From the NCBI RefSeq assembly GCF_964204865.1, contig NC_135261.1, positions 18,600,001 to 18,664,000 of the forward strand: a DNA stretch of 64,000 bases, read 5' to 3'. The position numbers were made by a program, and so were the translations under genes. Position 1 is the stretch's first letter. Every line of letters begins with the position of its first letter. This document shows positions 2,390-43,996 of the stretch, piece after piece. The notes under the pieces are model-generated. The model was not told the origin of the DNA and made no database searches. It saw only the letters and a list, made by a program, of their open reading frames with translations. This DNA comes from Styela clava. Lineage: Eukaryota.

Positions 2390-2830
2390 AGTCAAAAGGC
2401 AAACTTGATTCGCAAAAATTTGTGAATGCGCACAGTACACCAATTTGTCTAATGTTTTGATTCCATAGGCAGGAGGTTGTGGATCGGTGCTGCTCAGGAT
2501 GGGATATTTTTGCCTCTAAATGCATATTACGTGTTTCACATGAGTCCATCGTGCTCAGATTCGACTGTTTTCAAGGTCTGAAGGCTCCAACAGCCTTATT
2601 TTATGGGTACACAAGAGAATTTTCAATGTGGCATGCATGGGTCAGTTGGAGTCACTAACCTCAAGATATCTATAAGCAAGGATAAGATAACCTGGAAGTA
2701 ACATTCCATAATTTAGAGTAAAAAATGTATCTGCCTCCACAGCCCTTTCAAATGGAAGATATGATGCCTCGGGGGTAATTTCTATCAAATATTTTACAGT
2801 ATTATGGTTCTAGTGAAAAGGGGTGTAGGC
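2390..2830 (-). pseudogene. DDE transposase remnant (Harbinger/ISL2EU-type, DDE_Tnp_4-like)
   Basis: Minus-strand translation HNTVKYLIEITP...KGCGGR...LLPGYLILAYR...ATLKI...ENSRI*ARWTHVKHVICI*RQKYPILSS resembles the family consensus HNTxKYLIGITP..GWGGR..LLPGDxILADRG..RIHVERVIG..RQKY; interrupted by stops and frameshifts. Confidence 0.75.
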
Positions 2831-5599
2831 GGCTTTTTTTTAGTGTGGTAGGTCTAGTCGAAAGACACATTAAATGTTTATGCTAACAACTGCGAATTAA
2901 TATTGCAACGCATACAAGTTAACAGAATTTGTTGAAATGGTCCTGCCTTTTGCCTTCCTTCAAAATCCTCCTTTTTCTAACTATTCTCTTCTTCTCTGGG
3001 GATGGCGAAAATTCAAATATCGATGGGACATGTAAGCAGCTGATAATGGGTATCTTCACTTTTTCCTGAAAATAAATTAAACACTAATCATCATTTGACA
3101 GTGCCAAGTTTGTGTATCAGATCAGTAATAAATTACCTGCTAACTAACAAAACAATCAGACAACACCTTCTGACCATTAATGAAGATTTCTTTCAGTTTA
3201 AAACGCAACTATGCCAACGCAACTAGTTTTTAGGATAGAATTTATCTGTGGTTGGGGACAGATTGCAAGGTGCAACATCGTACGATTACCATTCTATGTC
3301 GGGATTAGTTAGCCAGTTTTTTGTTTTAGAAGCATGGACTTGATGGTGGGGGATGTCGTAATCGACCAGCGGTCGTGTGAACCACCCTTAGTGGGAGGAG
3401 AGCTGCAATCCCCTCGCACATAACTATCCCCGCATGGGATGGGAACCTGTGAAACTCCCAGGGGGATCAGAGATGCGGTGGCGAGCGTATTCTCAGATAG
3501 AGAATTCAATTGAATTCTGGTTATTTTTTGCATTAGCACTGGCGTTAAACTTTAGTTATCTATTCAAATTTTCACACTTACTAATAAATTACCTGCTAAC
3601 TAGGGAAACAATACCTCATGGCAATTATTGATTAATACCTTACACGAGTCAAGTCTGCAAGTAGGCCTACGCCTAAGCCTACCAATAACAGTAGTTTGTC
3701 ATCTGCTTTCCATTGAAATGAGGGAGCTTATGAATATTTAAAAAAAATTGATAACGGCACATCATGACTCACCATCAACGAAGTGCTGTCCGCAAATAGT
3801 GAAACACGAGTAAGATGGCTTCTGGACTTGACACCAAGCAGTCCTGCCAATAGATGATATCCATATTGCGCGACGTTCCGGATCTTTTGAAAACAGTGGA
3901 TTATAGCTGAAGATCCATTTCGTTGTCTATACTATACGTACAGCCAGCGGAACAATACGAAATAACCATTTTCAACAGCCAAACAAAACGGAAACGTATA
4001 ATCCGACTTGCAACTGACAGGAGCCAAATGGACGTTTTTGTTTTATTGCCGTCCAGTAACAAGGTCACGTGACTCGTGCAAGTCCTCTATACTGAATTTG
4101 TAGATTGTGAATAACACACTGAGTTTATGGCTCAACTAAATAGGAGTTTGACTAATACACACGCAGAGTTTGATTTCAAATACTGATAGATTCCGGGATT
4201 AATAACTGAATAAAATACAAAAGAAATGGTAATTATAAACACATAAATCCCAGACTATCCTAAAACCTAACATAATGATTCCCTACTAAATATTAAAACT
4301 AACAGCAATCTAAAATGATTCATAAAATCTACACTCCTATAAATCCTAAAAAGACCAGCAAAGTAGATAACAGCAGATTGCACTATAACTAGCTCGCCTC
4401 GCTCACGCAAGCCGAAAGCAATACAAGAAACTAACTAAAGAGCAAAGAACTTTATCGGTCGATTGCCGCAGCCAATAGCGTGCAAGATAAACATATTGCG
4501 TTTATTGCCGTACAACAAACAACCAATCCGGAACCTTTTGAGTCTTCTGATTCATACAATCACAGTAGACACATCTTTTCTGCCGTGACAATGTGCTTGT
4601 TGGACATGAAATGCATGTACCTACTTCGTACCCATATATATATATATATATTAGAGCATTGTTCATTTGTGATTTACTTGTTGTTTTGAAAAAAATCGCA
4701 TTTCGCTATTAACCGGACCAATTGCTTTGAAATTTTCATTGGTTGCATTATTCGCTAGAATGCTATTACTTTTATTTATTTTTAAAAATTACCATGGGCT
4801 CTATAAGATTCGATTTCTGGTGTGCAACGACGTCAAGAAAATTAAAAGTTGCGGCCCTCGTGGCGGTTCCGCGTTCGCGTTAATGGTCAGGCGACTGTGG
4901 TACGTTAGTTCACTATGACAGATTGCATATACCCGTACTACTTCGTTTTTACTTTCGTGTTCATATGCTTGAACATCGCCATCTTGTTAAAATATGTATT
5001 ACTTTGTTTGCATATGATATTTTATACATCGCCGGAATAAAAATGGACGCACACGATAAACATTCACGTTCGAATAACATGTAGCCTATGCGCTGTAAGC
5101 TATTTGATATTTAAAACAAGTCAGATTGTATACGATAACGTAGCTAACCGTCGACACTTATTGGACATCTATAGCAGAGATTTCGTTTTCCTACATTCGT
5201 AGCGTTTTCGCCAATCACAAATTGTGAAAAATGTGTTTTCGTAAAAATTGAACCTGAATATTCCACTTATGGATTTATGCTAAAAGTATCTATTTGAAAA
5301 AAATGAGCACAACTCTTTCTTCTTGAAACATATGAATAATGAAACATATTTGAATATTAATAATATTCAGTCTACAGCTGTATTGCACGATTTGCACATC
5401 TTTGTATCTCTCTTGAAATTGGATTATTGCGCCAATTCGTTTCCCACAAATGTTAATTAATCAAGCATATGCGAATAATACGATAATTCATTTTTTCAAT
5501 GTAATTGGTGATTAACTAGATTCCAATATTTAGTTTAGCAAAATGTACCTCTTGCCACGACTGGTCTGCGTTTTTGATTTTGTATGCTTATGGAAAAGA

Positions 5600-8500
5600 G
5601 AAAAAATTTCTCGCTATTACAATCAAACCATATACCAGAAGTACAAATTTGAGTAATTCGACAATTTAATTATGAATCACCGTGCTATTTTTGACCAACA
5701 TCACGTGAGTCGGTGACGATATAAACAAATCATGACGTAAAAACGCGGGAGATTTGAATTCGTTTGCAGTCGTACTACCCACAGTTTATTTATATATAAT
5801 CTATCATCAGAGTGTCGTTTAAAAACCACAATAGGTAACCAGAATTAATTAAAGCTATTCTATTTATAGATATAGTTATTAATATTCAAATGTGTTACCC
5901 TATTTGAGACATATTAGTGGTGTGCTTTGGTGAATTTCTGTAACTAAGATTTTAATGATATATTTCTGGATTGATATTTCTGATTGGTGATTTCAAACTT
6001 TTGAATTTTTTTTTCCGTTAATATGACCAATATAATAAACATCTATATTGGACGCTCAGTGGCAAGTGAATACAAGTATTGCTAAAAATAGGAAAGGGTC
6101 AACGTTGTATTCTTGAGTCGAATAAAATTAAGTCAACTTCATTTAAAATATATATTTTTTTTAAATATGTTGTAACATTACTAAGGTTATCACACACCAT
6201 TTTCATCACCTATACCCGGTTCTACACAATATGTATATATATAGCACTATATTTACAGTCATATCGTGACTTCTAAAAATTTGATTCGGATTTATTTGAG
6301 CATGCATTTTAATCGATTTATCAATTCTGACCTATAAACCAATATAAAATTTAAAGGAATAAATAAACAAATAAAAAAATGACAGCCAGAGTAAATATAA
6401 GTAAAATTTTGGATTAAAATATCGGCTGCGACAATAAAAAAAAAACATTTATCGATCCGACACCATTGCAGATCTGCCTTAAATTAGACAAACAACAGAA
6501 TTGTTCGACTATACTGCGAAACCGTGACATCGCATTCCAGAGGTAATTGGTAAAATATTCTATGAAAGTAGAAGTGCGTGCATTTTATTTTTGTACATGT
6601 ACACTATGACTATTTTCTTAACGAAACTCTAGCAAAAGTTATTTTAAAAAATTTTCCAATTGGCTCTTTGAGGATGACTACTGAACATTGGACGCAATGT
6701 GAAAAAATGGCGATACTATATCATATTATTAACATTTTCTAAATATATCAGACAAATTAAATCACAAGTTCAATTCAATAAATGTACCACTTAGTTTACG
6801 AAGATAAATTTAGCTATCCATTATTATTAGTTAGTTTGATAATTTCGAATATTCAAACACAAAACAGGCTGATTTAAGCTAACATTGGTCGGCTTGGAGG
6901 CGTGTTTAAATAGAACCATCTCGACGTCAGAAAAATACTTTATAACAACTTTTGAATGTAAACACAATCTCATTTAAATTCTGCGAAACGTATTTTATAA
7001 ATGAAAAATAAAATACATAAGTAAGTCGACAATTTAATTATGATGCACTTGGATATGTTGGTCCACAACCACACGAGTCGACTGCGTAATGAACGGATCA
7101 TGACTTAAATAAAAACGCAGAAGATTTGAATTCGTGTCCAGCATACAGGCGTTCTACCCGTAGCCTAAGTTATAACCTATCATCAGAGCGTCGTTTGAAA
7201 AGCAAAACAAAAATTCGAATATAATGAAGCTATTCTATTCATAGATAGTTATTTTCAATCAATTGTGCCGGCCTATTTTATAACATTTTTGTTGTGTGCT
7301 TTGTTAAGATTATGTAACTAGGATTTGAATAATATTTTTGGAACAATATTCCTATTGATGAGCTCAAACATTCAAATTTTGTTTCGTGTATATGATTACT
7401 CTACTAGATTTCTTTAGTGGACTCTTAATTGCGGGCGAATGAATACAACTAAGGGGGAAAAAAGTAAAGTGACAACGTTGAACTTATGAGTCGACTAATA
7501 TAAGGTCAACGTCATACATATTTGCAAAATATATTGTATGATTACTAATTTATTACACACACCATTTTTGACCACCTAAACCCGGTTCTACACGATATGT
7601 ACTGAGCACTATGTTTACAGTCATGTCGTGACTCCAAAAAGTTCGAGTCGGATTTATTTAAGCATGCATTTCAGTTTGTTCATCAATTCAGACCTATAAA
7701 CCAATATAAAATTTACTTGAATAAATAAACAAATACAAAAATGACGGCCAGAGTAAATATGAGTAAAATTTTGGATTAAAATATCGGCTGCGTCGAAAAA
7801 AATTTTTTTTATCGATTCGACATCATTGCAGATCTGCCTTAAATTAGACGAACAACAGAATTGTTCGAAAGATCATTGGAAAAATATAATAAAAATAAAA
7901 AGTGCGTGCATATTATTTTGCACGCTATGATACTTTTATTAACGAAACTTTAGCAAACGTTATTTTAAAAGCTTTTCTGAATGGCTCTTTCGGGATGACT
8001 AATAAACATTGCACAAACTGTTGACAAAATGGCGTTGTTATATCAAATTTCCTAAATAAATCACACAAAAATAGGTAATATAGGCTAATCTTGATCAGCT
8101 TGGAGACCTATTTAAATAGAACCATCTTGACGTTATAAAAATATTTTTTTCAAACTTTTGAATGTAAACACAATCTCATTCAAATTCTGCAAAACGTTTT
8201 TTTTTATAAATAAAAAAATATATTTATTTCGGGCATCAAAACAGGAGTTGATTTATTACACTTAAATCCAATACCAGAAGTGCAAATTAAAGTAAGTCGG
8301 CAATTTAATGATGATGCTCCGTGTCATTTTGTACCAACATCACGTGAGTCGATGGCGATATGAAATGTTTATGACGTAGATAAAAACGCGGGAGTTTTGA
8401 ATTCGTTTGTAGCATACATGCGTACTACCCACAGTCCAATTATAACCTATCATCAGAGTGTCGTTTAATTAAAAAACCAAAACAAGGATCAGAATCAAGT

Positions 8501-9775
8501 TAAGCTGTTCGAGTTATAGATACGCTGCAATATTTAAGACACATTAGTTGCGTATTTGGTGAATTTCTGTAACTACCATGTAAATGATACATTTTTGGAT
8601 TTATATTTCTTATTCGTGAATTTAAACTTTCGAATTTTGTCCTGTATATGACCACTATACTAGATATCTATAGTGTACTCATAATGGCGAGCCAATTCAT
8701 TTATTGCTAAAATAAGTATAGTGTCAACGTTGTATTCTTGAGTTCAGTGAATTATGTCAACGTCATTTGAAAAAATTATTTTTGAAATATGCTGTGTATC
8801 ACAACTAAGATTATCACACACCGCTTTTGTATATCTGGTTATAAATCATATGTACTGCATGTTATATTACCAGTCATGTATATTTTAACATCATGATCCC
8901 AAAAAACTTGAGTCGGATTTTTATATATGCCTGCAAATTTAATTTTGACTATAAGGCCATATAAAATTAACAAAACAAAAATGAATTACTAAGTACAAAT
9001 AAAGCCAGAGTGAATATAAGTGAATTTTGGATTAAATATCGGCTTCGACGACCAAACAATTAAGTAATAGCATCATAGCGGCCCTTCCCATCTTCAAGAA
9101 CTGAAACCCTGAAGTCATTAGGAAGACAAGGAAACAATTAATTTCACATAAAAGGTGACAAAAAAAGTGATGTTCATATTGGCTGAAACTGGGTGGACAC
9201 TCATTTAATTTCATCGATCCGAGATCATTGCCCTAAATCAGACAAACAACAGAATTGTTCAACTATATTGAGAAACCCTGACATTGTATTCAAAAGTCAT
9301 GTGGTAAGATATTATAGAGTAAACAAAAAGTGCGCGCATGTTATTTTTGTACACTCTGACGCTTTTCTTTACGAAACTGTGGCTAAAGTTATTTTAAAAA
9401 GTGATTGATTGACTCTTTCAGTATCACAATGGTAACAAAATGGCGACGCTATATCATTTGAATAACATTTTTCAATTATATCAAACAAATAAAAGTAGAT
9501 ACCATAAAATATACTACCTAGTTTAAATTTAGCTATTCATTGTTATTGGTTAGTTTGATAGCTCTCAAATTTTCAAACACAAAACGAGATAAATAAAGCT
9601 GATCTTGATTAGGTTTGGAAACGTGTTAAAATAGATCCATCCTGACGTCATCATGACAACATGCTAGACCAAGTTTTCAACATAAAAAATATCTGTTACA
9701 AATTCTACGAAATGTATTTTATTGAATATAAAAAAAATACATTTATTTTGGAAAACAAAACATGAATTGATTTAG
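5600..9775 (+). repeat. Degenerate tandem array (3 units, ~1.3 kb) upstream of gene A1
   Basis: Marker CACGTGAGTCG..ATGACGT..AAACGCGGGAGATTTGAATTCGTTT recurs at ~5700, 7070 and 8340; marker AGACAAACAACAGAATTGTTC recurs at ~6485, 7845 and 9240. Confidence 0.85.
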
Positions 9776-9811
9776 TATAAATTAGGTCACTTGTGCACAC
9801 TTGGCATCAGT
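9776..9811 (+). promoter_or_regulatory. Core promoter of A1: TATA box, TGCACAC, TCAGT initiator
   Basis: TATAAAT at 9776, TGCACAC at 9794-9800 and TCAGT at 9807-9811; the same spacing is conserved before all four paralogs. Confidence 0.7.
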
Positions 9812-9953: not shown

Positions 9954-12431
9954 ATGAAGATACTGGTTGTTTTGTGTTGTTTCGTAGTTGCAGGTAAGAT
10001 AAAAGTTTTCATAATTACACTATCTGTTTTAAATTTGATAAGCATTATCAAAATTATCGAGACTATAATAATATTCAAATATTCCCATAATTCAAACAAT
10101 CAAAAGCTTATAACCTAAAAACTTCAGTATTAGTGTTTTTTCAATCTTATTGAAACAACAAACAGATAATTAAAGATTTTGAATTTTGTTCATTTCCAGC
10201 CGTGATGGCTGACACCATTTATGCTGCCCCTTGGATATTACAAACGAGTATATTAAATTTCGCACAAGGTTGAATCAACAGAAAATGTTAATGATTATAT
10301 TCTTCTCAGTATCTTCATATGGGGGAGAGAGGAGACAATATTTTCAGTGGGGAAGCGGAAACAAAGGTATTTACTTTTTGTTTAGTTTATCAAGAAAGGT
10401 AAGTCAACATAAAAATTGATGCTTCTACATTAGTGATTTCTATACAAAATTTCTATCTGTTCAAAAACAACAATCATGCTCTTTAAATGAATTGATAACA
10501 CGATAATGACACTGAATATATTTTTCAAAAGATAACTTTGGACCAAAATCATTTGGAGACGGCCTTAGACGTAGAACAAACGGATGGAGAACAAGTAAAC
10601 CAGTTTTGTTTATGCGTAAACGTCTACAAGAAAGAACAAAATTTGCACCAGAAATACCAATACCCTATCGACCAAGTCTGTTTAAACGTTCTCCTCCAGG
10701 CATTATGATCAAAAAACAGGATACACCTGAACCATTGTGGCAGCGAGCTCTAAAAATTCTCTTCAACATAAATAGCAACAAATACCGGCCGAGACCATTT
10801 GGTATTCCGGGGGATGATGATAAAAGTAGACTTGGACAACTTTGGCGCCGAGTGGATGTTGTTAGAAATCGACCCGGGCCATTTGGACGTCGAGGAGATG
10901 GAGGCAGACTAGGGCCTTTTAGGCGACAAGGAGATGACGATGGTTATGAACCTGGACCTTTTCAACGTAGAGAATATGGTGATAGAGGTGGACTTGGACC
11001 TTTCGGGCGTAGAGGAATTGTGAATAGACTGGGACCTTTCGGGCGTGGAGGAGTTGTGAATAGACCTAAACCTTTCGGGCGTAGAGGAGATAATGATGGA
11101 GATAGACCTCGACCTTTTTGGAGCAGAGGTGATAATGGTAAAGATAGACCTAGACCTTTCGGACGTAGAGGAGATTATGTCGGAGATAAACCTAGACCTT
11201 TTTGGAGTAGAGGAGATAATGATGGAAATAGACCTGGGACTTTCTGGAGTAGAAAAATTAGTGACGAAGACAGGCTTGAACCTTTTGGACGACGAGAACA
11301 TGGTGATGGTGATAGACCTAGATCTTTTTGGAGTATAAGAGATAAGGATGGAGATAGACCAGTACCTTTTGGACGTGGAGGAGATAATGGTAGGGATAGA
11401 CCTGGACCTTTCGGACGTCGAGAAGATGGAAATAGGCCAGGGCCTTTTGGACGCCGAAGAGATGGCGATGAAGATAGACCTGGACTTTTTAGGCGTAGAG
11501 GAGATGGTGGTAGAGATAAACCTGAAAAATTCAATTTTGATGATAATTCCAGAAAGTTTAAAGAATGCAATAAACAATGTGAATCATTAGACGAATGTTT
11601 CGGCAAAAAAGACTTTAAAAAAATTATGATGATTGCTCCTAAACCTTGCAAGACATGTGTGATGAAAGAATGTGAATTTAAAACGAGTAAGTGTATATTT
11701 ATTCTATAATTTTCTTTTAGCAAAATGTCCAACTCAGATTTTATAAATAAACGAGGCGAAACATTGATTTTTACCAGATTTGAAATGCTTTTTCTGTTTT
11801 TTCACATGAAGCATATTATTGTTAATTCAATTTTTCGCGATCAAAATCTATTGATCTAAAATTTACTGCTGTTTCATAAAGTCAGATTGTGATAGGTTAT
11901 ATTCATTATATTTTTTTAGATCGTCAATGCTTTGTGGATTCCCATGCAACGTGCAGTGACATCTGCCCGAAAATATCACCTGATAAAGTCAAGGATAAAA
12001 TTTCCTCATGTGCATCATGTATCAATAAATGCGAAGCGGAAGGTATTTTTTTATATTTATTTCTTTTATCACCTGATGTTGCAATTGTCGAAGAAGCTTG
12101 ACCAAAGATGAGAGATTTGAATCTTTTACAGAAATATGAAAGTTTAATCATTCAAGCCATCATAACCAACTAAAACTACTCTAAATATGACATTATTTTA
12201 ATTGGAACAACTTTTTATAAAGATGACAACCAGAAAACTAAGGATGACAGTGAAGGCTACGAAGAAAACGGCACAAATGGAGTCGATGATGACGTGGAAA
12301 GCGAAGATCATGGCGATGCCCACGATGACGGAGCTGAGGCAGACAACGAAGATTGGCCAGAAAAGGAAGATGATAATGATGAGATAACCCCTGAGATGAT
12401 TTTGGCAATATTCAATAAGTTGCTATCCTAA
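9954..12431 (+). CDS. Gene A1: intact secreted RPGPF/RGD-repeat, Cys-rich (vanabin-like), acidic-tail protein, ~527 aa
   Basis: Exons 9954-9993, 10310-10366, 10532-11686, 11920-12042, 12223-12431, all GT-AG and phase 1, join in frame. Signal peptide MKILVVLCCFVVAVSSYG; repeat array; 12 Cys across exons 3-4; Asp/Glu tail; AATAAA at ~12444. Confidence 0.88.
10870..11525 (+). repeat. Coding 42-bp (14-aa) minisatellite in A1 exon 3
   Basis: Repeating AGACCT(G/A)GACCTTT(C/T)(G/T)GG..GTAGAGGAGAT units, translated RPxPF(G/W)(R/S)RGD. Confidence 0.9.
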
Positions 12432-13582: not shown

Positions 13583-14829
13583 GCTTTGCTATACCCTGTA
13601 GTCGTGCGTTGAAACTCAATAATAGTGAAAAGAGGATGCTTTGGGGGAAATGACTAAACTGGTCGTCATAAGGCGGTTAGATCTGCTGCAATTTTTATTT
13701 TTTTAGAAGTCGTCGCTAAAAAGGATCTAGATGATTGGGATTCAAAAATAATTTGTGACTTACAAATAGTATACGCAACGAATATGGAATCGACATGCAT
13801 ATGCAGGGAGCCATCAAAACTGCATTGTCCAACGGTACTTTGGATCGTCAAATTGACTGTCCCAATCGAATTCCAAGTGTATTTGACGTTACACAGGATG
13901 TTTGTCAAATAAATTTCGAAACAAACTCAACATGCGAGCATGCAATTCCAAGATGTAAGCATTTAACAACTCCTTAAAAATTTAATTTTATGGCAGTCAA
14001 GTTGCACGCCTGCTTCGGGAACATATTTTCTAAGAAGCAAATCACCAAGCAGACCCCCCGAAGGTGTCCGAGTGGCCCGCGCGATCATATTTGAAGCCCG
14101 ATGTCTTCCACAAATCTGAGCGACTATTGAAACCTCTTATTTCTCTCGTTCCTTCCTTAGGCAAGTACACACTGTGTTTAATGTGCTCATATAAAATAGT
14201 ATTACACTTTTTACATTTGATCTTCAAGGGTTTCATACATAGCTGAAACAAGAATATACGGCCTATCGACAACTTTTATTAAGCACTACAGTCTATTTAC
14301 TATCTAACTACATAAACGTTGTTTCTCCTAAATCCTAGAGTTTTCACCACTAACAAGTAGAGATGAAATCGTTTTTGCAAACATTAAAAATGACAAATTC
14401 ATGCCAGAGGGACGTGTTTGATAACTGAAGAAATGATTCTACTTATTCCTTTGCGCTCAAAGAATTAGACTGAAAATAATTCGACCTACGAATCGTTATG
14501 ATGTTTTCATGCTCTACTATCTATAAAAAATATTCAATGTTATTATTATTTAGCCTGACGGTAGTGTATTGCACAATATGAACATTTTCCACACATGAGT
14601 TAAACAAAAAATACGAAGATATATGCTGTTTTCATGACGTGTACTTGCTGATTATATAGATTCTAAAATTTATGTCAATAAAAATGCGGATTACTTTTCC
14701 CACAACTATTCGGCGTGTTTGATTGTGTATGTGTATATAAAATAGCGCGCGTATTTGCATGTTTCCAGCCTGAATTTTTGCAATCTTTCGCGAAAAAATG
14801 AAAATCAATTTATCTATATACTACACCCA

Positions 14830-17800
14830 AATCCCATACCAGAAGTGCAAATTGAAGAAAGTCGGCAATTTAATTAATAAGCACCGTGCTATTTTGGTCC
14901 AACCATCACGTGAGTCGATGACGATATGAACAGATTATGACGTTATAGAAAACGCGGGAGATTTGAATTCGTTTCCAGCATACGGGCGTACTATCCGCAG
15001 TTTATTTATACCCTATCATGAGAGTGTCGTTTTAAAAACCAAAACAAGGATTCGAATAAATTGAAGCTAAAGATATTCTATTTATAGATAGCTCTTTTCA
15101 ATCAAATATTGTGGGTCTATTTTAGGACATTTTAGCGCGGGTTTTGGTGCAAATTTCTAACTAGCATTTCAACTATATATTTTTGGAGTGATATTTCTTA
15201 TTGGTTAATTCAAACTTTTAAATTTCGTTTCGTGTATAATTTATTATGATTTCACACGAGATATCTATAGTGGACTTAATGGCAAGCGAATACGACTATT
15301 GCTAAAATTAGTATAGTGACAGCGTTGTATTAATTAGTCGAATAAACGAAAGTCAACGCCATACTTATTTTTAAAATATGTTTTAACATTACTAAGGTTA
15401 TCACACACCATTTTCGATCACCTATACTCATTTCATCGATCCGACACCATTGCAGGTCTGCCATAAATTAGACAAACAACAGAATTGTTCGACTATACTG
15501 AGAAACCCCGACATCGTATTCAAGAGGTCATTGGTAACATATAATAAATGTAAACAAAAAGTGCGTGCATGTTATTTTTGTACACTCATTTACGGTTTTT
15601 ATTTACGAAACTCTAGCAAACGTTATTGTATAAAGTTTACTAATTGGTTCCTTCAGTATGACTCCTAAACATTGCACGCAATGTTAACAAAATATTCTTA
15701 TTGGTTAGTTTGATAACCCTCGAATATTCAATCACGACGAAATAACTTGAACTAATCTTGATTAGCTTGGAGACGCGTTTACAACTAAATGGAACCATCT
15801 TGACGTCAAAAAATATTTTATACCAGGTTTTAAATTTAAACACAATCTTATAGTCTGGGAAACGTATTTTTATAAATGAAAAAAAAAATACATAAGTAAG
15901 TCGAGAATTTAAATATTGTGCACCGTGATATTTTAGATCAACACCAGTGAGTCGACGATGATATGAACGGATCATGAAGTAAATAAAAACTTGGGAGATT
16001 TAAATTCGTTTGCAGCATACAGGCGTACGACCCTCAATTTAATTATGGCTTTTTATCAGAATTTCATTTTGAAAACCAAAACAAAGAGTCGAATCAATTA
16101 GGCTAAGGCTATTCTATTTATGGATAGTTATTTTCGATCAAATAGGTGGGTCTATTTTAAGACATATTACCGGCGTGTTTTTGTGAATATTTCTAACTAG
16201 CATTTCAACTATATATTTTTGGAGTGGTATAGTCACTATACTGAGAAACTCTGACACCGTATTCAGGGGGTCATTGATAAAATATAATAATATAATGAAG
16301 TAAACAAAAATGTACGTACATGTTATTTTTGTACACTTTTACGCTTTTCTTTGCGAAACTCTATCAAAAGTTATTTTAAAAAGTTCTCTGTTTGGCTCTT
16401 TTGGGATGAGTAATTAACAAAATGGCGGTGCTTTATTTCAACATCTTTTTCTAAATATATCAGACAAACAGGATAAAAATTTCAATCCATTAAATTTATT
16501 ACTTAGTTTACAAAGCTAAATTTAGCCATTATTATTGGTTAGGTTGATAACTTTCGAATATTCAAACACAAAACAAGATAATTTGAGCTAATCTTGATCA
16601 GCTTGGAGATGTGTTTGAATATAGATCCATCTTGACGTCATGGAAATATTTAATATCAAGTTTCGAATGTAAACACAGCATCAAAACAAGAGTTGATTTA
16701 CTACACTGGAATTCACTACCGAAACTGCATATTGAAGTAACTCGACAATTTAATTATGATGAACCCTCATATTTCGGTCCAAAATCACATGAGTCGATGT
16801 CGATATGAGCAGCGGATCATGACGTAAATAAAAGCGCGGAAGATTTAAATTCGTTTGCAGCATACAGGCGTTCTACCCGTAGTTTAATTATAGTTTATAT
16901 CATAGTATAGTTTAAAAATCAAAACAAGAATGCGAAGTAATTAAAGTTATTCTATTCATAGATAGTTGTTTATAATCAAATGTGCTGTCTTATTTAAGAC
17001 ATATTAGTGGCGTATTAGTATCGGTGAATTTCTGTTCTGATGTTTCCTATTGGTGAAATCAAACTTTAAATTTTTTTCCCTTGTATATGATCGCTATAAA
17101 AGATATCAACGTTGTATTCATGAGTAAAATATTTATTTTAAAATAAAATGTTGTATCATTACTAAGATTATCACACACCATTTTTGATAAGTATATCTGG
17201 TTATATATCATATGTACTGCATATTATATTTACAGTCATGTATATTTCACCATCGTGATCGCAAAAACTGTGATTCGGATTTTTATATATGCATGCAAAT
17301 TTAATTGTGACCACCAGGCCATATAAAATGAACAAAACAAAAATGAATTACTAAGTACAAATGAAGCCAGGGTAAACACAAGTGAAATTTTGGATAAAAT
17401 ATCGCCTTCGACGACCAAAAAACTATAAAAGCAATAGCATTGTAGCGGCCTTTCCCATCTTCAAGAACGGAAAACCTGAAGTAATTAGGTAGAAAAGAAA
17501 ACGATTAATTTCACATAAAAGGTGACAAAAAATGTGATATTCATATTGGCTTCAAAAAACTGAGTGGACACTCATTTAAATTTATTGACCCGACACCATT
17601 GCCTTAAATCAGACAAACAACAGAATTGTTCGACGCTATTGAGAAACCCTGACATTGTATTCAAAAAACATTCGTAAGATATAATAAAGTAAACAAAATG
17701 TGCGTGCATGCTATTTTGGTACACTCTGACGCTTTTCTTTACGAAACTCTAGCTAAAGTTATTTTAAAAAGTTTTCTCATTAGCTCTTTCATTATGACAA

Positions 17801-18130
17801 TGCTAACAAAATGGCGACGCTATATCATTTCAATAACATTTTTCAAATATATCAGACAAATAAAATTTCAAACCGCTAAATGTACTACTTAGTTTAAATT
17901 TAGCTATTCTTTGTTATTGGTTAGTTTGATAACTCTCGAATATTCAAACACAAAACGAGATAAATAAAGCTGACCTTGATGTAAAAAGAACCATCCTGAC
18001 GTCATCGTGATAACATTTAGGACCAAGTTTTTCAACGTGAACACAAACTAATATAAATTCTACGAAATGTATTGATATAAATGAAAAGAAAAAATACATT
18101 TATTTTGGGCAACAAAACAAGTGTTGATTT
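14830..18130 (+). repeat. Degenerate tandem array (3 units) upstream of gene B1
   Basis: The same markers occur at ~14905, 15945 and 16785; perfect TGACGTCA at ~15801, 16634 and 17997. Confidence 0.85.
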
Positions 18131-18132
18131 AG

Positions 18133-22007: not shown

Positions 22008-24419
22008 TAATTCCGATTCAGCGACGAACGTTTTCTCTCTGGAACAGTTTTAAAATATTCAAATATATCTAAAATTGTTATGTAAACTACCTAAAAAGGT
22101 TGGAGCATTAATGTGTTGAGAAAATGTGCTAATAAAACCGTATAACCAATGACCTAAAAGATTATTTCGAAATTTTTATGCTGTTGCTACAGTCGGATAG
22201 AACAATTCAGCACCAAGAAATATGTACTATAAATCATAATTTCGTTAGGTAACTTCCACAAAGAGTGAGTGACATCTTGTCAGATTTTTCTTTCAAGTAG
22301 ACTCACGACCAAGGTCGTAGCCTGACCAAAATTTGTGATTCGAATTTTAATTAGAAGCTTAACACGGTCTACGATATCACCCCCTGAAAAATAAAACGGC
22401 ACGATTAGCTTCGAGTCAAGTCAATTTAAAAACTTTAAATCTCATCATTAAAATAAATTCAATTCATAGTGTTTTTCGTAACATAAAACAAATTATCATA
22501 ACATCAACCTGACTACATGAGGAACTACCCACACAAGTTCATTCGTCGCTTTCGCAGGTTGAGATAGTAGCCTAACTTTGAAATTGATATTATCGTCGTT
22601 GATCGGCTTTCAGGATGACAATGAAGAATGAATACATTGCTGAACGCAATAATGACTTGATCCGTTTCAAGCAAATCTAGCTAAAAACGCATAAGTCATA
22701 GAACAAAAAAAAAGAAAATTTAATTCGTGCGTTGAACCTTGTGTTCATGCAAGTAGGTGTCAACTGTGCCATTGCCTAAGTGTTGGTGTATGCTGAGAAA
22801 ATGACGTGCGAGAGTCTCACTGCAAATGGCGCAATTTCGCATACGCAGAATATCAAATATTTTTGCAACAAGCACTCATGTTGGGGACTGGATAGCACTA
22901 TGAAATTTCTTTGGTTTTATTCTGGTCCTATCTTTTGTCATACGTATATGACTCTCAACATGATGGATTATTGCACGATATACATGTACATGACTGCTAC
23001 TCAGACTAGATCCCAGGAAGAATTCCCATAGCCGGCGTTGAAGAATGATACTGAGAGAACGATATATATATATATCATCAAATTGTTTGCCTAATGCAGA
23101 TAGTTTCTTTTGTAATATTTGTATTGTCCAAGATGTCCATCACATGCACTCCCGAATTAAGCCATATTTTTTTAAATAAAATTGAAAATTTAAGTTGAGT
23201 TTAGGAAAGAAGAATGTTGGACATGAAATAACATATGGCGCAATTACAACTAATCTTTGATTGAGAGACCAATTATTCCATTTCAAATTTCTAACCTATT
23301 AAATTAAAGGGGTTAGTGACTAAGTTAGTTGTCTGGGTGCGTCTCTAAAATCGAGACTCATTTTGGGTAACGTTGGGCTACCTACCCAGTGCACTTGCTT
23401 ATCGATGAGGTTTGTTGAAAATAGTAAATTAAATAAATCATAAATTCGTTGTTGCTTAGATTAATTAGTATAGCTAAAAAATATTTTGGACATCAATTAC
23501 TATCCCGAATAAAAAATAATATATACAAATATCAGTCAAACCGATTTGATTCTGGAACGAGCTTTTGAAATTGAGCGAAAAAAAAATGAATATTAGTTCA
23601 AAAGTGAATGTCGAAGCCCTTGCCTAATGGTAAGATCGGCACTGGTGACAATGCAGATTCGAAATGAATATTCGGCACTTTTGCTTTTCGCTATTTACCG
23701 ACCCAATTGCTTTGAAAATTTCAGTGGTTAAAATTGTATTATTCGCTAGAAGGCTATGGGGTCTATGCGATTCGATTTCTTGTGTGGGAAGACGTCATCA
23801 AAATTAAAAATTGCGGCCCCCTTGGCGGTTCCGCAATCGCGTTAGTGGTCAAGCGACTGCGGTACAGTAATTCACTGTGACAGATTACATATACCCGTAC
23901 TAGTTCGTTTTGCTATTCGTGTCCATATTGGAGCATCGCCCTCTTGGTAAAAATTGTATTACTTCGTTTGCATATGATCTTCTGGAGTTTTATAAATAAC
24001 CAGAAAAAAAATGTACGCACACGACAAACATTCGCGTTCGAATAACGTTTATGCGCTATCGGCTATTTGATATTTAAAACAATTCAGATTGTATACAATA
24101 ACGTAGCTAACCGTTGACAATACTTGTGGGACATCCAATAGCAGAGACTTCGTTTCCCTACATTCGTAGCATTTTCGCCAATCTCAAATAGTGAGAAATT
24201 CGTTTTCGCAAAAATTCAAACGGAAGAAAAGATTCCACTTATGGTCTTATGCTAAAAGGATCTGTTTGTTTTACTTTTCAATGTAATTGCTGATTAACTG
24301 GTTTATAATATTTAGTTTGGCAAAATGTGCTATTCCTTCTGCCACGATTGACCCGCGTTTTTGAATTTGTATGCGTATATAAAATAGGTTATTTAAAAAT
24401 TTTCTTTCTACTTCACTCA

Positions 24420-26980
24420 AACCGTATACCAGAAGTTCGTGAAGATATGAAGCACCGTGCTATTTTTGACCGACATCACGTGAGTCAGTGACGATATGAA
24501 CGGATTATGACGCAAATAAAAACGCGGGAGGTTCGAATTCGTTTCCAGCAGACAGGCGTACTACCCGAAGTTTTATTATATATAACCTATCATCAGAGTG
24601 TCGTTTTAAAAACCTGACAAGTAATAAAATTAATTAAAGCTGTTCTATTTATAGATTTATTTTTACTTATTTATTTATAGCTATTTTTGCTCAAATGTGC
24701 TGGCCTATTTTAAGACATTTTTGTGGTGTGCTTTGGTGAGATTGCGTAACTTGGATTTAAACAAGGTTTTTGGAGCAATATTTCTTATTGATGAATTTGA
24801 ACTTTCAAATTTTGTTTCATGTATTTGATTACTATATTAGCTCTATCTCTCTAGTGGAATCTTAAGAGCAGGCGAATACAACTATGGCTAAAAAAAATAT
24901 AGTGTCAACGTTAGTGGAATAAAATAAAGTCAACTTCATACTCATTTTTAAAATATGTTGTATCATTACTAAGGTAATCACACACAATTTTTAATCTCAT
25001 GTGCCAGATTATACATGATATGTACTGCGCGCTATGTTTACAGTCATCCTCTGTCGTTAAGTGTTATGACTCCGAAATATTTGAGTCGGATTTAAATAAG
25101 CATGCATGCAATTCAATTCGTTCATTGATTCCGAACCATAAACCCATATAGAATTTGAAAAAATGAATAATTGAACGAATATTAAAAAGAAAGCCAGAGT
25201 GAAATGTAAGTAAAATTTTGGATTAAATATCGTCTACGACGATAAATCATTAAATCGGTCCGACACCATTGCAGATCTGCCTTGAATTAGACAAAGAACA
25301 GAATTGTTCGACTATACTGAGAAACTCTGACATCGTACTCAAGAGGTCATTGATAAAATATAATAAAACTAAACAATAAATGCGTTCATGTTATTTTTGT
25401 ACACTTTGACATTTTTCTTAGCGAAACTCTTTTCTTAGCGAAAGTTATTTTAAAAAGTTTTCTGATTGGCTCTTTCAGTATGAGTAATTAACAAAATGGC
25501 GGCGATATATCGTAATGGAATTTTCTAAATGTATATATCAGACAAATAAAATAAAATCACGTGAGTGGATGGCGATATGAACGGATCATGACGTAAACAA
25601 AAACGCGGGAGATTTGAATTCGTTTCCAGCCTACAGGCGTTCTACCTTTAGTCTGATTATTTATAACCTATCATTAGAGTGTCGTTTAAAAACCAAAAAA
25701 AAAATTTGAATTCAATGAAACTATTCTATTTATAGACAGTTAGTATCAATCGAATTTTCTGGCTTATTTAAGACATATTAGTGATGTGATTTGGTGAACT
25801 TCTGTAACTACCATGTTATTGATATATTTTTGGAGTGATATTGGTTTAATCAAACTTTCAGTTTTGTTTCGTGTATATGTTTACTACAATAGATATCTAT
25901 AGTGAACTTCTAATGGAAAGTCAATTCAACTATTGCTATATAACAAGTATAGTGTCAACATTGTATTCTTGAGTCCAATAAAATTAGGTTAACGTCATCT
26001 CTAAAATAGGTTGCATCATTATTAAAATTATCATACACCATTTTAATGTCGTATATCTTGGCATAAACATCATATGTACTGCATGCATTGTTTACAGTCA
26101 TGTATATATATATTTACCGTAGGCTTTATATAGCCTATGCATTCATATTCATTTGTTCCTTAATTTAGACCCATCAACCCATGTAAAATTAAGGGAACAA
26201 TAATGAATTACCGAATACAATTATGGCAGTCAGAAAAAATAAGTCAAAATTTGAATAAAAATTAGGCTGAGACGACCAAAAGTATGGAAGTAAAGGCTTT
26301 GCAGCGACTTTTTCTATCTTCAACTACTTGCAACTTATCATTAGGTCCATTAGTATAAAATGATTATTCTCACATAGAGCGGAACAAAAGAATGTGATGT
26401 CCGTGTTTGACGGAACCTTGTGGACACTTGATTAGACAAACAACAGAATTGTTCGACTATACTAAGAAACACTTCCATCGTATTCAAAGGGTAATTGGTA
26501 AAATATAATAAAAGTAAACAAAAAGTGCGTACATGGTATTTTTGTACACTATGACGCATTTCTTATCGAAATTCTGGCAAAAGTTATTTTAAACAGATTT
26601 TCTGATTGGCTCTTTCAGTATGAACAATTAACAAAATGGCGGTGCTATATATTAATAACATTTTTTAAATATATCAGATAAATAGAACTAAGACTTCAAT
26701 CCATTATATCTACTACTTAGTTTATAAAGATAAATTTAGCTATTCATTGTTATTGGTTAGTTTGATAACTCTCGAATATTCAAACACGAAACGAGATAAT
26801 TAAAGCTGATCTTGATCAGGTTCGGAAACGTGTTAAAATAGAACCAACCTGACGTCATCACGACAACATTGTAGACCAAGTTTTCAACGTGAACACAATC
26901 TGATATAAATTCTACAAAATGTATTTTTATGAATATAAAAAAATATTTTTATTTCAGGCAACAAAACAAGAGTTGATTTA
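24420..26980 (+). repeat. Degenerate tandem array (2 units) upstream of gene A2
   Basis: Marker CACGTGAGT..ATGACG..AAACGCGGGAG at ~24477 and 25558; TTAGACAAA.AACAGAATTGTTCGAC at ~25287 and 26432; TGACGTCA at ~26850. Confidence 0.85.
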
Positions 26981-31349: not shown

Positions 31350-32639
31350 GCTTTGCTATACCCTGTAGTCGTGCGTTGAAACTCAATAATAGTGAAAAGA
31401 AGATGCTTTGGGGGAAATGACTAAACTGGTCGTCATAAGGCGGTTAGATCTGCTGCAATTTTTATTTGTTAGAAGTCGTCGCTAAAAAGGATCTAGATGA
31501 TTGGGATTCAAAACTAATTTGTGACTTACAAATAGTATACGCAACGAATATAGAATCGACATTCATATGTAGGTAGCAATCAAAACTGCATTGTCCAACG
31601 GTACTTTGGATCGTCAAATTGACTGTCCCAATCGAATTCCAAGTGTATTTGACGTTACACAGGATGTTTGTCAAATAAATTTCGAAACAAACTCAACATG
31701 CGAGCATGCAATTCCAAAATGTAAGCATTCAACAACTCCTTAAAAAATTAATTTTATGGCAGTCAAGTTGCACGCCTGCTTCGGGAACATATTTTCTAAG
31801 AAGCAAATCACCAAGCAGACCCCCCGAAGGTGTCCGAGTGGCCCGCGCGATCATATTTGAAGCCCGATGTCTTCCACAAATCTGAGCGACTATTGAAACC
31901 TCTTATTTCTCTCGTTCCTTCCTTAGGCAAGTAAACACTGTGTTTAATGTGCTCATATAAAATAGTATTACACTTTTTACATTTGATCTTCAAGGGTTTC
32001 ATACATAGCTGAAACAAGAATATACGGCCTATCGACAACTTTTATTAAGCACTACAGTCTATTTACTATCTAACTACATAAACGTTGTTTCTCCTAAATC
32101 CTAGAGTTTTCACCACTAACAAATAGAGATGAAATCGTTTTTGCAAACATTAAAAATGACAAATTCATGCCAGAGGGACGTGTTTGATAACTGAAGAAAT
32201 GATTCTACTTATTCCTTTGCGCTCAAAGAATTAGACTGAAAATAATTCGACCTACGAATCGTTATGATGTTTTCATGCTCTACTATCTATAAAATATATT
32301 CAATGTTATTATTATTTAGCCTGACGGTTGTGTATTGCACAATATGAACATTTTCCACACATGAGTTAAACAAAAACATATACGAAGTTATATGATGTTT
32401 TCATGACGTGTACTTGCTGATTATATAGATTCTAAAATTTAAGTCAATAAAAATGCGGATTACTTTTCCCACAACTATTCGGCGTGTTTGATTGTGTATG
32501 TGTATATAAAATAGCGCGCGTATTTGCATGTTTCCAGCCTGAATTTTTGCAATCTTTCGCGTGCACACGCTATGATGTTTACGATTGTTTATACTTTAAA
32601 ACGAAAAAATGAAAATCAATTTATCTATATACTACACCC

Positions 32640-35600
32640 AAATCCCATACCAGAAGTGCAAATTGAAGAAAGTCGGCAATTTAATTAATAAGCACCGTGC
32701 TATTTTGGTCCAACCATCACGTGAGTCGATGACGATTTGAACAGATTATGACGTTATAGAAAACGCGGGAGATTTGAATTCGTTTCCAGCATACGGGCGT
32801 ACTATCCGCAGTTTATTTATACCCTATCATGAGAGTGTCGTTTTAAAAACCAAAACAAGGATTCGAATAAATTGAAGCTAAAGATATTTTATTTATAGAT
32901 AGCTCTTTTCAATCAAATATTGTGGGTCTATTTTAGGACATTTTAGCGTGGGTTTTGGTGCAAATTTCTAACTAGCATTTCAACTATATATTTTTGGAGT
33001 GTATTTCTTATTGGTTAATTCAAACTTTCAAATTTCGTTTCGTGTATAATTTATTATGATTTCACACGAGATATCTATAGTGGACTTAATGGCAAGCGAA
33101 TACGACTATTGCTAAAATTAGTATAGTGACAGCGTTGTATTAATTAGTCGAATAAACGAAAGTCAACGCCATACTTATTTTTAAAATATGTTTTAACATT
33201 ACTAAGGTTATCACACACCATTTTCGATCACCTATACTCATTTCATCGATCCGACACCATTGCAGGTCTGCCATAAATTAGACAAACAACAGAATTGTTC
33301 GACTATACTGAGAAACCCCGACATCGTATTCAAGAGGTCATTGGTAACATATAATAAATGTAAACAAAAAGTGCGTGCATGTTATTTTTGTACACTCATT
33401 TACGGTTTTTATTTACGAAACTCTAGCAAACGTTATTGTATAAAGTTTACTAATTGGTTCCTTCAGTATGACTCCTAAACATTGCACGCAATGTTAACAA
33501 AATATTCTTATTGGTTAGTTTGATAACCCTCGAATATTCAATCACGACGAAATAACTTGAACTAATCTTGATTAGCTCGGAGACGCGTTTACAACTAAAT
33601 GGAACCATCTTGACGTCAAATAATATTTTATACCAGGTTTTAAATTTAAACACAATCTTATAGTCTGGGAAACGTATTTTTATAAATGAAAAAAAAAATA
33701 CATAAGTAAGTCGAGAATTTAAATATTGTGCACCGTGATATTTTAGATCAACACCAGTGAGTCGACGATGATATGAACGGATCATGAAGTAAATAAAAAC
33801 ATGGGAGATTTAAATTCGTTTGCAGCATACAGGCGTACGACCCTCAGTTTAATTTTGGCTTTTTATCAGAATTTCATTTTGAAAACCAAAACAAAGAGTC
33901 GAATCAATTAGGCTAAGGCTATTCTATTTATGGATAGTTATTTTCGATCAAATAGGTGGGTCTATTTTAAGACATATTACCGGCGTGTTTTTGTGAATAT
34001 TTCTGACTAGCATTTCAGCTATATATTTTTGGAGTGGTATAGTGACTATACTGAGAAACTCTGACACCGTATTCAGGGGGTCATTGATAAAATATAATAA
34101 TATAATAAAGGTAAACAAAAATGTACGTACATGTTATTTTTGTACACTTTTACGCTTTTCTTTGCGAAACTCTATCAAAAGTTATTTTTAAAAGTTCTCT
34201 GATTGGCTCTTTTGGGATGAGTAATTAACAAAATGGCGGTGCTTTATTTCAACATCTTTTTCTAAATATATCAGACAAACAGGATAAAAATTTCAATCCA
34301 TTAAATTTATTACTTAGTTTACAAAGCTAAATTTAGCCATTATTATTGGTTAGGTTGATAACCTTCGAATATTCAAACACAAAACAAGATAATTTGAGCT
34401 AATCTTGATCAGCTTGGAGATGTGTTTGAATATAGATCCATCTTGACGTCATGGAAATATTTAATATCAAGTTTCGAATGTAAACACAGCATCAAAACAA
34501 GAGTTGATTTACTACACTGGAATTCACTACCGAAACTGCATATTGAAGTAACTCGACAATTTAATTATGATGAACCCTCATATTTCGGTCCAAAATCACA
34601 TGAGTCGATGTCGATATGAGCAGCGGATCATGACGTAAATAAAAGCGCGGAAGATTTAAATTCGTTTGCAGCATACAGGCGTTCTACCCGTAGTTTAATT
34701 ATAGTTTATATCATAGTATAGTTTAAAAATCAAAACAAGAATGCGAAGTAATTAAAGTTATTCTATTCATAGATAGTTGTTTATAATCAAATGTGCTGTC
34801 TTATTTAAGACATATTAGTGGCGTATTAGTATCGGTGAATTTCTGTAGCTAGGATTTTAATGATCTAATTTTGGATTGATGTTTCCTATTGGTGAAATCA
34901 AACTTTAAATTTTTTTCCCTTGTATAGGATCGCTATAAAAGATATCAACGTTGTATTCATGAGTAAAATATTTATTTTAAAATAAAATGTATCATTACTA
35001 AGATTATCACACACCATTTTTAATAAGTATATCTGGTTATATATCATATGTACTGCAAATCATATTTACAGTCATGTATATTTCACCATCGTGATCGCAA
35101 AAAATGTGATTCGGATTTTTATATATGCATGCAAATTTAATTGTGACCACCAGGCCATGTAAAATGAACAAAACAAAAATGAATTACTAAGTACAAATGA
35201 AGCCAGGGTAAACACAAGTGAAATTTTGGATAAAATATCACCTTCGACGACCAAAAAACTATAAAAGCAATAGCAGTGTAGCGGCCTTTCCCATCTTCAA
35301 GAACGGGAAACCTGAAGTAATTAGGTAGACAAGAAAACGATTAATTTCACATAAAAGGTGACAAAAAATTTGATATTCATATTGGCTTCAAAAAACTGGG
35401 TGGACACTCATTTAAATTTATTGACCCGACACCATTGCCTTAAATCAGACAAACAACAGAATTTGTTCGACGCTATTGAGAAACCCTGACATTGTATTCA
35501 AAAAACATTCGTAAGATATAATAAAGTAAACAAAAAGTGCGTACATGCTATTTTGGTACACTCTGACGCTTTTCTTTACGAAACTCTAGCTAAAGTTATT

Positions 35601-35960
35601 TTAAAAAGTTTTCTCATTAGCTCTTTCATTATGACAATGCTCACAAAATGGCGACGCTATATCATTTCAATAACATTTTTCAAATATATCAGACAAATAA
35701 AATTTTAAACCGCTAAATGTACTACTTAGTTTAAATTTAGCTATTCTTTGTTATTGGTTAGTTTGATAACTCTCGAATATTCAAACACAAAACGAGATAA
35801 TTAAAGCTGACCTTGATGTAAATAGAACCATCCTGACGTCATCGTGATAACATTTAAGTTTTTCAACGTGAACACAAACTAATATAAATTCTACGAAATG
35901 TATTGATATAAATGAAAAAAAAAAATACATTTATTTTGGGCAACAAAACAAGTGTTGATT
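32640..35960 (+). repeat. Degenerate tandem array (3 units) upstream of gene B2
   Basis: Near-identical to 14830-18130; markers at ~32717, 33755 and 34597. Confidence 0.85.
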
Positions 35961-35963
35961 TAG

Positions 35964-43916: not shown

Positions 43917-43996
43917 TATAATCAGTGTAACTATTACTACATTTTCCAAATGATAATTTTGCTCAGATCAAGAGGCTTACAAATCCTAAGAACAGA

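What the first reader, a model, noticed from the sequence alone, without database searches (positions are those of the whole stretch)
5600..9811. Promoter-derived tandem arrays: 11 copies of a motif-dense unit in front of the four genes
Seen: each gene is preceded by 2-3 diverged ~0.9-1.4 kb units (3+3+2+3). Conserved islands include CACGTGAGTC (E-box overlapping an AP-1-like site), ATGACGT, TGACGTCA (perfect CRE), ATTGG (CCAAT) and AAAATGGCG (YY1-like). Only the last unit continues from AAAACAAGAGTTGATTTA into the TATA box; inner units diverge at that point. I did not see the unit elsewhere in the window. Inference: the upstream region was amplified in place into an enhancer array for strong or stress-inducible expression, parallel to the coding-repeat amplification.
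Basis: partly seen in the sequence, partly recalled or inferred. Interest (0 to 1): 0.7.

Follow-up and report, generated by a model that had tools for sequence, protein, structure and literature searches.

The report
Old triplicated promoter in sea squirt
Five sea-squirt genes in one cluster each carry one or two extra, ageing copies of their own upstream control region that stop short of the TATA box; the extras likely act as weak add-on enhancers, but most of their sequence drifts like intron DNA and no effect on expression has been shown.

Summary
The array is real. Eleven units of 0.8-1.5 kb lie 3+3+2+3 before four paralogous genes for a secreted Gly/Arg/Asp-repeat protein; a neighbouring exon points to the ascidian Styela clava. 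Upstream of the window lie three more units and one single-unit, broken paralog; no copy was found elsewhere. The unit is a slice of ordinary upstream DNA, not a transposon or satellite. Units mostly group by position, not by gene: all 9 distal copies lack a ~150-bp block that all 5 proximal copies and the single-unit paralog keep. The region was thus most likely amplified before the genes duplicated, then reshuffled, not amplified per gene. At 3 junctions the copy ends 1 nt before TATAAA. Function is only weakly supported. Whole units diverge like introns, and distal copies lost 17% to large deletions versus 3%. YY1-like, CACGTG and CRE/ATF sites are conserved, but cross-validated tests give p 0.07-0.09; CRE/ATF sites decay in distal copies and CCAAT is mostly unconserved. 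Stress induction has no support here. Promoter-fragment duplications are a known kind. The scan's index held no earlier finding of it.

The parts
5596..7021 (+). Gene 1, distal unit A (1426 bp): copy of the upstream region without the ~150-bp proximal-only block; ends about 30 nt short of the TATA position
7022..8255 (+). Gene 1, distal unit B (1234 bp): ends at TTGATTTA, the position 1 nt before TATAAA in the proximal copy; two internal deletions of 20 or more columns
8256..9774 (+). Gene 1, proximal unit C (1519 bp): the inferred working upstream promoter, running into the TATA box
9061..9208 (+). ~150-bp block (ends approximate) kept by all 5 proximal units and the single-unit paralog, absent from all 9 distal units
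   Evidence: 137-157 residues versus 0-4 in alignment columns 1105-1270
5702..5711 (+). CACGTGAGTC (E-box) in unit A; exact again at 8341, changed in unit B at 7070
5732..5738 (+). ATGACGT (ATF/CREB-type half site) in unit A; again at 8371, changed in unit B
6704..6712 (+). AAAATGGCG (YY1-like) in unit A; again at 8026 and 9437; the best-conserved window of the unit
9643..9650 (+). Perfect CRE TGACGTCA, proximal unit only in this array; distal copies read CGACGTCA (6922) and TGACGTTA (8128)
9776..9811 (+). Predicted core promoter, not duplicated: TATAAA at 9776 and TCAGT initiator-like site 33 nt downstream; same spacing in all 5 plus-strand paralogs with units
   Evidence: TSS not measured
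9954..12431 (+). Gene 1: predicted signal peptide, Gly/Arg/Asp repeats, 12-Cys domain, acidic tail; 527-aa model with no internal stop; its last two introns are spliced in RNA-type contigs
14795..18131 (+). Gene 2 array: units 14795-15896, 15897-16700, 16701-18131; TATAAA 18133, ATG 18300
24390..26980 (+). Gene 3 array: units 24390-25552 and 25553-26980, joined at a deletion-type junction; TATAAA 26982, ATG 27155
32605..35962 (+). Gene 4 array: units 32605-33706, 33707-34511, 34512-35962, 98.5-99.5% identical to the gene 2 array; TATAAA 35964, ATG 36130

Best explanation
Each array is a gene's own ~1.45-kb upstream region plus one or two old tandem copies that stop short of the TATA box; the copies likely arose before the genes duplicated and likely act as weak, partly decayed add-on enhancers for the one core promoter. 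Inferred history: (1) one ancestral gene duplicated the stretch from about -1.5 kb to 1 nt before TATAAA; (2) the distal copy lost a ~150-bp block; (3) that copy was doubled, and a ~65-bp loss across one junction would explain the second junction type; (4) the three-unit module was copied with the gene, and unequal exchange and deletions then made mosaics and the two-unit array. Inferred mechanism: the proximal unit carries CRE/ATF, E-box and YY1-like sites and drives a TATA-plus-initiator promoter; the distal copies would add extra YY1-like and E-box sites without adding a competing start site. Shown: anatomy, locality, shared deletion, intron-like overall divergence. Inferred: order of events, the TSS, factor identities. 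Untested: any enhancer activity. I put the history at about 0.85 and the function at about 0.5.
For: Local only: all 31 and 16 matches of two genome searches lie on contig C16 within about 70 kb; a profile search of 184 kb finds the 15 units and nothing else; DNA-run depth over the gene 1 array is 12-68 against about 15,000 on a neighbouring repeat. Homology continues in patches upstream of the unit edge between first units and the single-unit paralog, so it is a slice of flank. Proximal units form one clade (support 98) and all 9 distal units lack the block. Four named CpG-bearing sites show 9 changes against 25.8 expected in 7 distal units and 3 against 17.6 in 4 proximal units (sites chosen after the fact). 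With 32 canonical motifs and all hits counted, 5 sites are strongly conserved against 0.65 for permuted motifs, p 0.0002, mean rate 0.72 against 0.98, p 0.016. The YY1-like site has 0 substitutions against 6.6 expected in distal units, and its 12-mer occurs 579 times in the genome against 61 for the reversed control. All 5 plus-strand genes with units keep at least two. Gene 1 is spliced in 3 of 3 RNA-type runs laid, all from one study.
Against: Units are about as diverged as introns of the same gene pairs: g0-g1 introns 79.8%, units 78.9-82.6%; g2-g3 83.1% against 81.0-82.3% (one search agrees). Rate variation is mild (gamma shape 3.0), and the longest invariant run of 6 is what simulation gives. 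The best window is not significant after allowing for the search over all windows, p 0.10-0.25 for 8-10 columns. Cross-validated motif tests: distal ratio 0.76, p 0.09; proximal 0.70, p 0.08. The broad 40-motif library gives p 0.07. CRE and ATGACGT sites have 0 changes in proximal units but 7 against 10.9 expected in distal units. Distal units lost 16.6% of columns to large deletions against 2.7%, and these do not significantly spare the four core sites, 2 of 28 lost against 4.7 expected, p 0.17. Exchange between units (g0A-g2A 91.6% while their introns are 73-76%) can keep copies alike without selection. The deep branches among distal units are poorly supported (28-53). Gene 2 has an in-frame stop, so not every array serves an intact gene.
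Confidence: 0.5

Rival explanations
1. Same history, no function: the distal copies are neutral by-products of tandem duplication in an unstable cluster, slowly decaying and kept recognisable by unequal exchange with the working proximal unit. Only the proximal unit regulates the gene.
For: Intron-like divergence; six-fold more loss to large deletions, with 5 deletions of 100 or more columns in 7 distal units and 0 in 4 proximal; CRE/ATF sites decay in distal copies; cross-validated distal test p 0.07-0.09; mosaic nearest neighbours along the unit.
Against: YY1-like site unchanged by substitution in all distal units that retain it, and the E-box site has 2 changes against 8.3 expected; all 5 genes keep at least two units over about 20% divergence, although unequal exchange could collapse arrays (inference).
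Confidence: 0.36
2. The distal units are alternative TATA-less promoters or upstream non-coding first exons, or the promoters of genes whose bodies were deleted.
For: A perfect donor-like GTAAGT sits at the A/B junction of genes 0, 1, 2 and 4; two short low-depth RNA-type contigs lie at 8290-8538 and 8979-9165.
Against: No contig joins a unit to an exon among the joints shown (the tables were cut); units abut directly, with no gene or 3' flank remnant between them; the two contigs lie in the proximal unit at depth about 2 and may be DNA.
Confidence: 0.09
3. The unit is a transposon fragment or a long-period satellite that accumulated upstream of the genes.
For: Head-to-tail arrangement; the YY1-like 12-mer also occurs elsewhere in 25-bp-spaced pairs and triplets that look like a repeat family. 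The genome search warns that it skips very common words.
Against: Matches confined to this cluster; low DNA depth; no terminal inverted repeats and no stop-free frame over 90 codons; homology runs on into the flank and into the TATA box.
Confidence: 0.03

Closest known systems
Tandem duplications of a promoter fragment that raise expression: grapevine VvmybA1 408-bp GCE (PMC7464560) and wheat TaALMT1 upstream repeats (PMC6480313)
   Same: A stretch of the gene's own upstream region is repeated head to tail, 2-3 times here (2, 3 or 5 for GCE), upstream of one transcription unit.
   Different: GCE repeats are perfect, 408 bp, end 338 bp upstream of the ATG, are allelic and correlate with expression. 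Here units are 0.8-1.5 kb, about 20% diverged, reach up to 1 nt before TATAAA, were passed on through a gene cluster, and have no measured effect.
Shadow (redundant) enhancers born by duplication (10.64898/2026.06.26.734851, abstract: 18.3% of fly and 33.9% of mouse sets)
   Same: Several homologous regulatory-looking units before one gene, arisen by duplication rather than from transposons.
   Different: Those are elements with enhancer evidence; here the source is the promoter-proximal region and activity is untested.
rDNA spacer promoters and enhancer repeats (PMC12326227)
   Same: Promoter-related duplications upstream of the main promoter in a tandem gene cluster subject to unequal exchange.
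   Different: RNA polymerase I system; spacer promoters are functional and initiate transcripts, whereas these copies lack the TATA box and initiator. That review notes such elements rarely raised absolute transcription.
Promoter/enhancer repurposing in mammals (PMC6172195, abstract)
   Same: Idea that promoter and enhancer sequences can switch roles.
   Different: Those are orthologous elements switching in place, mostly enhancer to promoter; here a promoter-to-enhancer switch would come through duplication, and is not shown.

Membership tests
Promoter-fragment tandem duplication (GCE/TaALMT1 kind) | Direct head-to-tail repeat of the gene's own upstream sequence | tested here: met
Promoter-fragment tandem duplication (GCE/TaALMT1 kind) | Unit confined to the locus, not a mobile element | tested here: met
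   depth
Promoter-fragment tandem duplication (GCE/TaALMT1 kind) | Expression rises with copy number | not testable with these tools
   Only contigs were available, which cannot rank genes by expression
Duplicated (shadow) enhancers | Copies are homologous and arose by duplication | tested here: met
Duplicated (shadow) enhancers | Binding sites under constraint in the extra copies | tested here: inconclusive
   Named sites 9 changes against 25.8 expected, chosen after the fact; cross-validated p 0.07-0.09; CRE/ATF sites decay
Duplicated (shadow) enhancers | Unit as a whole more conserved than neutral DNA | tested here: not met
   Units about equal to introns of the same gene pairs
Duplicated (shadow) enhancers | Each copy drives overlapping expression on its own | not testable with these tools
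   Needs reporter or chromatin data
rDNA-type spacer promoter | Duplicated copy includes the core promoter and initiates transcripts | tested here: not met
   No distal unit includes TATAAA or the initiator-like site
TATA-containing Pol II core promoter (ascidian) | TATA box at -32 to -29 of a pyrimidine-purine start (PMC4691747, passages) | tested here: inconclusive
   TATAAA begins 33 nt before the A of (T/C)CAGT in 5 of 5 genes, one base outside that range; the start site is not measured
Transposon or satellite | Dispersed or high copy; terminal repeats or coding capacity; short homogeneous period | tested here: not met
Vanabin (considered for the downstream protein) | Core of 16-18 cysteines (PMC9486056, passages) and a match to the family or solved structure | tested here: not met
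   12 Cys in the domain; no Pfam family or PDB hit with single-exon queries, which is a weak test because the domain spans an intron

The most novel reading that the evidence does not exclude
An RNA polymerase II gene turned its own promoter into an enhancer array by duplicating everything up to 1 nt before the TATA box and leaving the core promoter out; selection kept the YY1-like and E-box sites in the extra copies for long enough to pass the module to five paralogs, leaving a natural series of 0, 1, 2 and 3 units in one cluster with which promoter-to-enhancer conversion could be tested directly.
Probability: 0.3. Interest if true: 0.6.

Novelty: new member of a known kind. Interest (0 to 1): 0.35.

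Why it matters
Known promoter-fragment duplications are mostly young and near-perfect. This one is old, datable against introns, and present in 15 copies in one cluster with paralogs carrying 0, 1, 2 or 3 units. It therefore shows what happens to duplicated promoter DNA over time: which sites stay, which decay. If the distal copies are active, it is a clean case of promoter-to-enhancer conversion by duplication, testable by electroporating reporters into ascidian embryos. If not, it is a caution that motif-bearing tandem arrays upstream of genes can be decaying by-products.

Tried and rejected
Dispersed repeat or satellite: rejected. Assembly artefact: rejected, since most units differ by about 20% and DNA runs cover all 30 bins of both stretches laid; the near-identical gene 2 and gene 4 modules were not checked separately against reads. 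Independent amplification per gene: rejected by the shared deletion and the tree. Expression: the run search listed no holder on record as RNA. RNA-type contigs barely cover the array or exon 1, and runs X9 and X10 did not cover the gene 2 3' exons or the gene 3 5' part; this is no evidence either way, and the start site could not be mapped. Naming the protein: no hit at E 0.001 or 0.01 among proteins of 211-674 aa; no Pfam family (one E 5.8 chance hit); no PDB hit; two hits among cluster representatives that look like repeat-driven chance matches; a single-sequence model of one exon was too poor to search (pLDDT 53). Deletions sparing motif sites: not significant. Genome-wide enrichment of the E-box island: 6 of 7 exact 13-mer matches are in this cluster, so it is not a common word. 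Literature: searches listed no title or abstract opening that describes this cluster or its promoter array; only the listed results were seen (20 of 503, 12 of 38), and subscription journals and supplements were not covered. Earlier scan findings: none near the locus; two unrelated ones by words.
Full report
Setting. The window lies on contig C16 of a 377-Mb genome. An exon at window 50063-50392 is 100% identical over the aligned part to a Styela clava protein, so the host is most likely this ascidian. Four paralogous genes start at 9954, 18300, 27155 and 36130. A gene 1 model of 527 aa has no internal stop; it has a predicted signal peptide, 42-bp Gly/Arg/Asp repeats, a 12-Cys domain and an acidic tail. 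Its last two introns are spliced in contigs of 3 of 3 RNA-type runs laid, all from one study. The protein found no convincing relative.

The observation. Self-comparison and alignment give 11 units in the window, 3+3+2+3, of 804-1519 bp. Three more precede a fifth paralog (gene 0) 4-8 kb upstream of the window, and one precedes a broken minus-strand paralog (gene M) about 31 kb upstream. A seventh paralog (gene Z) has a different upstream region with no unit. Each array ends in TTGATTTA, then G, then TATAAA, with a (T/C)CAGT site 33 nt on in 5 of 5 genes. In Ciona TATA boxes lie at -32 to -29 of the start (PMC4691747, passages). The start site here is predicted, not measured.

Not a mobile or satellite repeat. 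All 31 and 16 matches of two genome searches fall within about 70 kb of this cluster, with the tool's caveat that very common words are skipped. A profile search of 184 kb finds only the 15 units. DNA-run depth over the gene 1 array is 12-68 against about 15,000 on the repeat at 4500-4793. There are no terminal inverted repeats and no stop-free frame over 90 codons. Homology continues in patches of 55-120 bp upstream of the unit's edge between gene M and genes 1, 2 and 3, so the unit is a slice of ordinary flank.

History. All 5 proximal units and gene M hold a ~150-bp block (137-157 residues) that all 9 distal units lack (0-4 residues). Proximal units form a clade with support 98; the deeper order among distal units is poorly resolved (28-53). 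There are two recurring junctions. At 8255, 16700 and 34511 a unit ends at TTGATTTA, the base before G-TATAAA in the proximal copy, and the next begins at alignment column 33. At the A/B junctions, and at gene 0's second junction, the unit ends about 30 nt earlier and the next begins at column 69. The simplest reading is one duplication, loss of the block, a doubling of the distal copy, and a ~65-bp loss across one junction, followed by gene duplication. This order is inferred. Later exchange is evident: g0A and g2A are 91.6% identical while their genes' introns are 73-76%; genes 1 and 3 have 93% identical introns but 78-81% identical units; nearest neighbours change along the unit. Gene M's single unit is the most distant (66-73%) and fits the ancestral state, though secondary collapse is not excluded.

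Constraint, whole unit. Conservation tests used 12 of the 15 units; the three gene 4 copies were dropped as 98.5-99.5% identical to gene 2's, and 1309 of 1955 columns with at least 8 sequences were kept. Units are about as diverged as introns of the same gene pairs: g0-g1 introns 79.8% against units 78.9-82.6%; g1-g2 80.5% against 75.8-84.8%; g2-g3 83.1% against 81.0-82.3%. Rates vary mildly (gamma shape 3.0) and are somewhat clustered (p 0.0005 to 0.003), but the longest invariant run, 6 columns, matches simulation. Seven distal units lost 16.6% of columns to large deletions, four proximal units 2.7%.

Constraint, motifs. Motif names are recalled consensus labels, not results of a database scan. 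The YY1-like, CRE and CACGTGAGTC sites rank in the top 0.2%, 1.1% and 1.5% of same-length windows; the four ATTGG sites rank at 9-65%. A broader 40-motif library gives p 0.07. Finding sites in one group and counting changes in the other gives ratios of 0.76 (distal, p 0.09) and 0.70 (proximal, p 0.08). The single best window is not significant after allowing for all windows (p 0.10-0.25 for 8-10 columns). Site by site, CRE and ATGACGT have 0 changes in proximal units but 7 against 10.9 expected in distal ones; the YY1-like site has 0 against 6.6 and the E-box island 2 against 8.3 in distal ones. One deletion cuts the YY1-like site in g2A and another removes the CRE in g3A; 2 of 28 core sites lost against 4.7 expected, p 0.17. 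The YY1-like 12-mer is over-represented genome-wide, 579 against 61, partly in repeat-like clusters. No NF-kB-type site occurs in the units, and metal- and heat-shock-type sites are not among the conserved ones.

Reading. The proximal unit looks like a working promoter with CRE/ATF, E-box and YY1-like inputs. The distal copies are under relaxed constraint and may keep some function through the YY1-like and E-box sites. I give weak add-on enhancers 0.5, neutral decay 0.36, alternative promoters 0.09 and mobile DNA 0.03. Stress induction rests only on the CRE/ATF sites.

Comparison. Tandem promoter fragments that raise expression are known: the grapevine 408-bp GCE in 2, 3 or 5 copies (PMC7464560; abstract and section 3.2) and wheat TaALMT1 (PMC6480313; one passage). 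Duplication underlies 18.3% of fly and 33.9% of mouse shadow-enhancer sets (10.64898/2026.06.26.734851; abstract). rDNA spacers hold promoter duplications and enhancer repeats (PMC12326227; passages). Promoter/enhancer switching is described in mammals (PMC6172195; abstract). This locus meets the structural criteria of the first kind; the expression criterion could not be tested. It differs in unit size, age, the break next to the TATA box, and inheritance through a gene cluster. Listings showed no description of it; supplements and subscription journals were not seen.

Verdict. A real, local, old promoter-region triplication: a new member of a known kind, with borderline evidence of function. 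Interest 0.35.

Noticed in passing
window 9954-12431, 18300-22090, 27155-29967, 36130-40094; L015-L019: A seven-member cluster of unnamed secreted proteins with 14-residue Gly/Arg/Asp repeats (6 RGD in gene 1), a 12-Cys domain and an acidic tail. The Cys-core-plus-acidic-tail layout recalls vanabins, but the cysteine count differs and no database hit was found.
   Followed up: partly
window 19052-19054: Gene 2 has an in-frame stop where genes 0, 1, 3 and 4 read through; not checked against reads.
   Followed up: partly
window about 27998: Gene 3 has a frameshift in the assembly; a contig of DNA run X6 with gene 3-type letters nearby is four bases longer there, so this may be an allele or an assembly error.
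   Followed up: partly
L018:5161-9610 (gene Z, about 10-15 kb upstream of the window): A paralog whose 3' part is 86% identical to gene 1 but whose upstream region, first exons and N-terminus are unrelated or far diverged; looks like a chimera with a different promoter.
   Followed up: partly
L015:4000 to L016:9545, minus strand (gene M): Broken paralog with one unit, a degenerate TATA box and no CRE; about 10 kb separate its first exon from the next matching one, with a gag-like open frame inside, and a transposase-like frame lies just past its 3' end (labels recalled, not tested).
   Followed up: partly
window 736-4091: Large inverted repeat with arms of about 0.9 kb (85-98% complementary) around a degenerate frame at 1542-2030; likely a DNA transposon remnant.
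   Followed up: no
window about 4500-4950, 12930 and 23700-23890: Very high-copy short repeat (depth about 15,000 in DNA runs), probably a MITE family.
   Followed up: no
window 30696-30925: A 230-bp element with 79-nt inverted arms in the gene 4 upstream flank, absent from the matching gene 2 flank.
   Followed up: no
window 41285-42136: 175-bp tandem repeat, 4.9 copies.
   Followed up: no
window about 48900-56800: Inverted pair of glutathionyl-hydroquinone reductase (YqjG-like GST) paralogs.
   Followed up: partly
window 43085-47059: Exon-like frames with a weak arrestin C-domain hint (E 0.12, below the family cut-off).
   Followed up: no
window 7021, 15896, 33706 and L019:3049: The A/B junction creates a perfect splice-donor-like GTAAGT in genes 0, 1, 2 and 4; no spliced contig uses it among the joints shown.
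   Followed up: partly
G000 genome-wide: The YY1-like 12-mer occurs 579 times against 61 for the control, often as 25-bp-spaced pairs or triplets, suggesting a repeat family that spreads this site.
   Followed up: no
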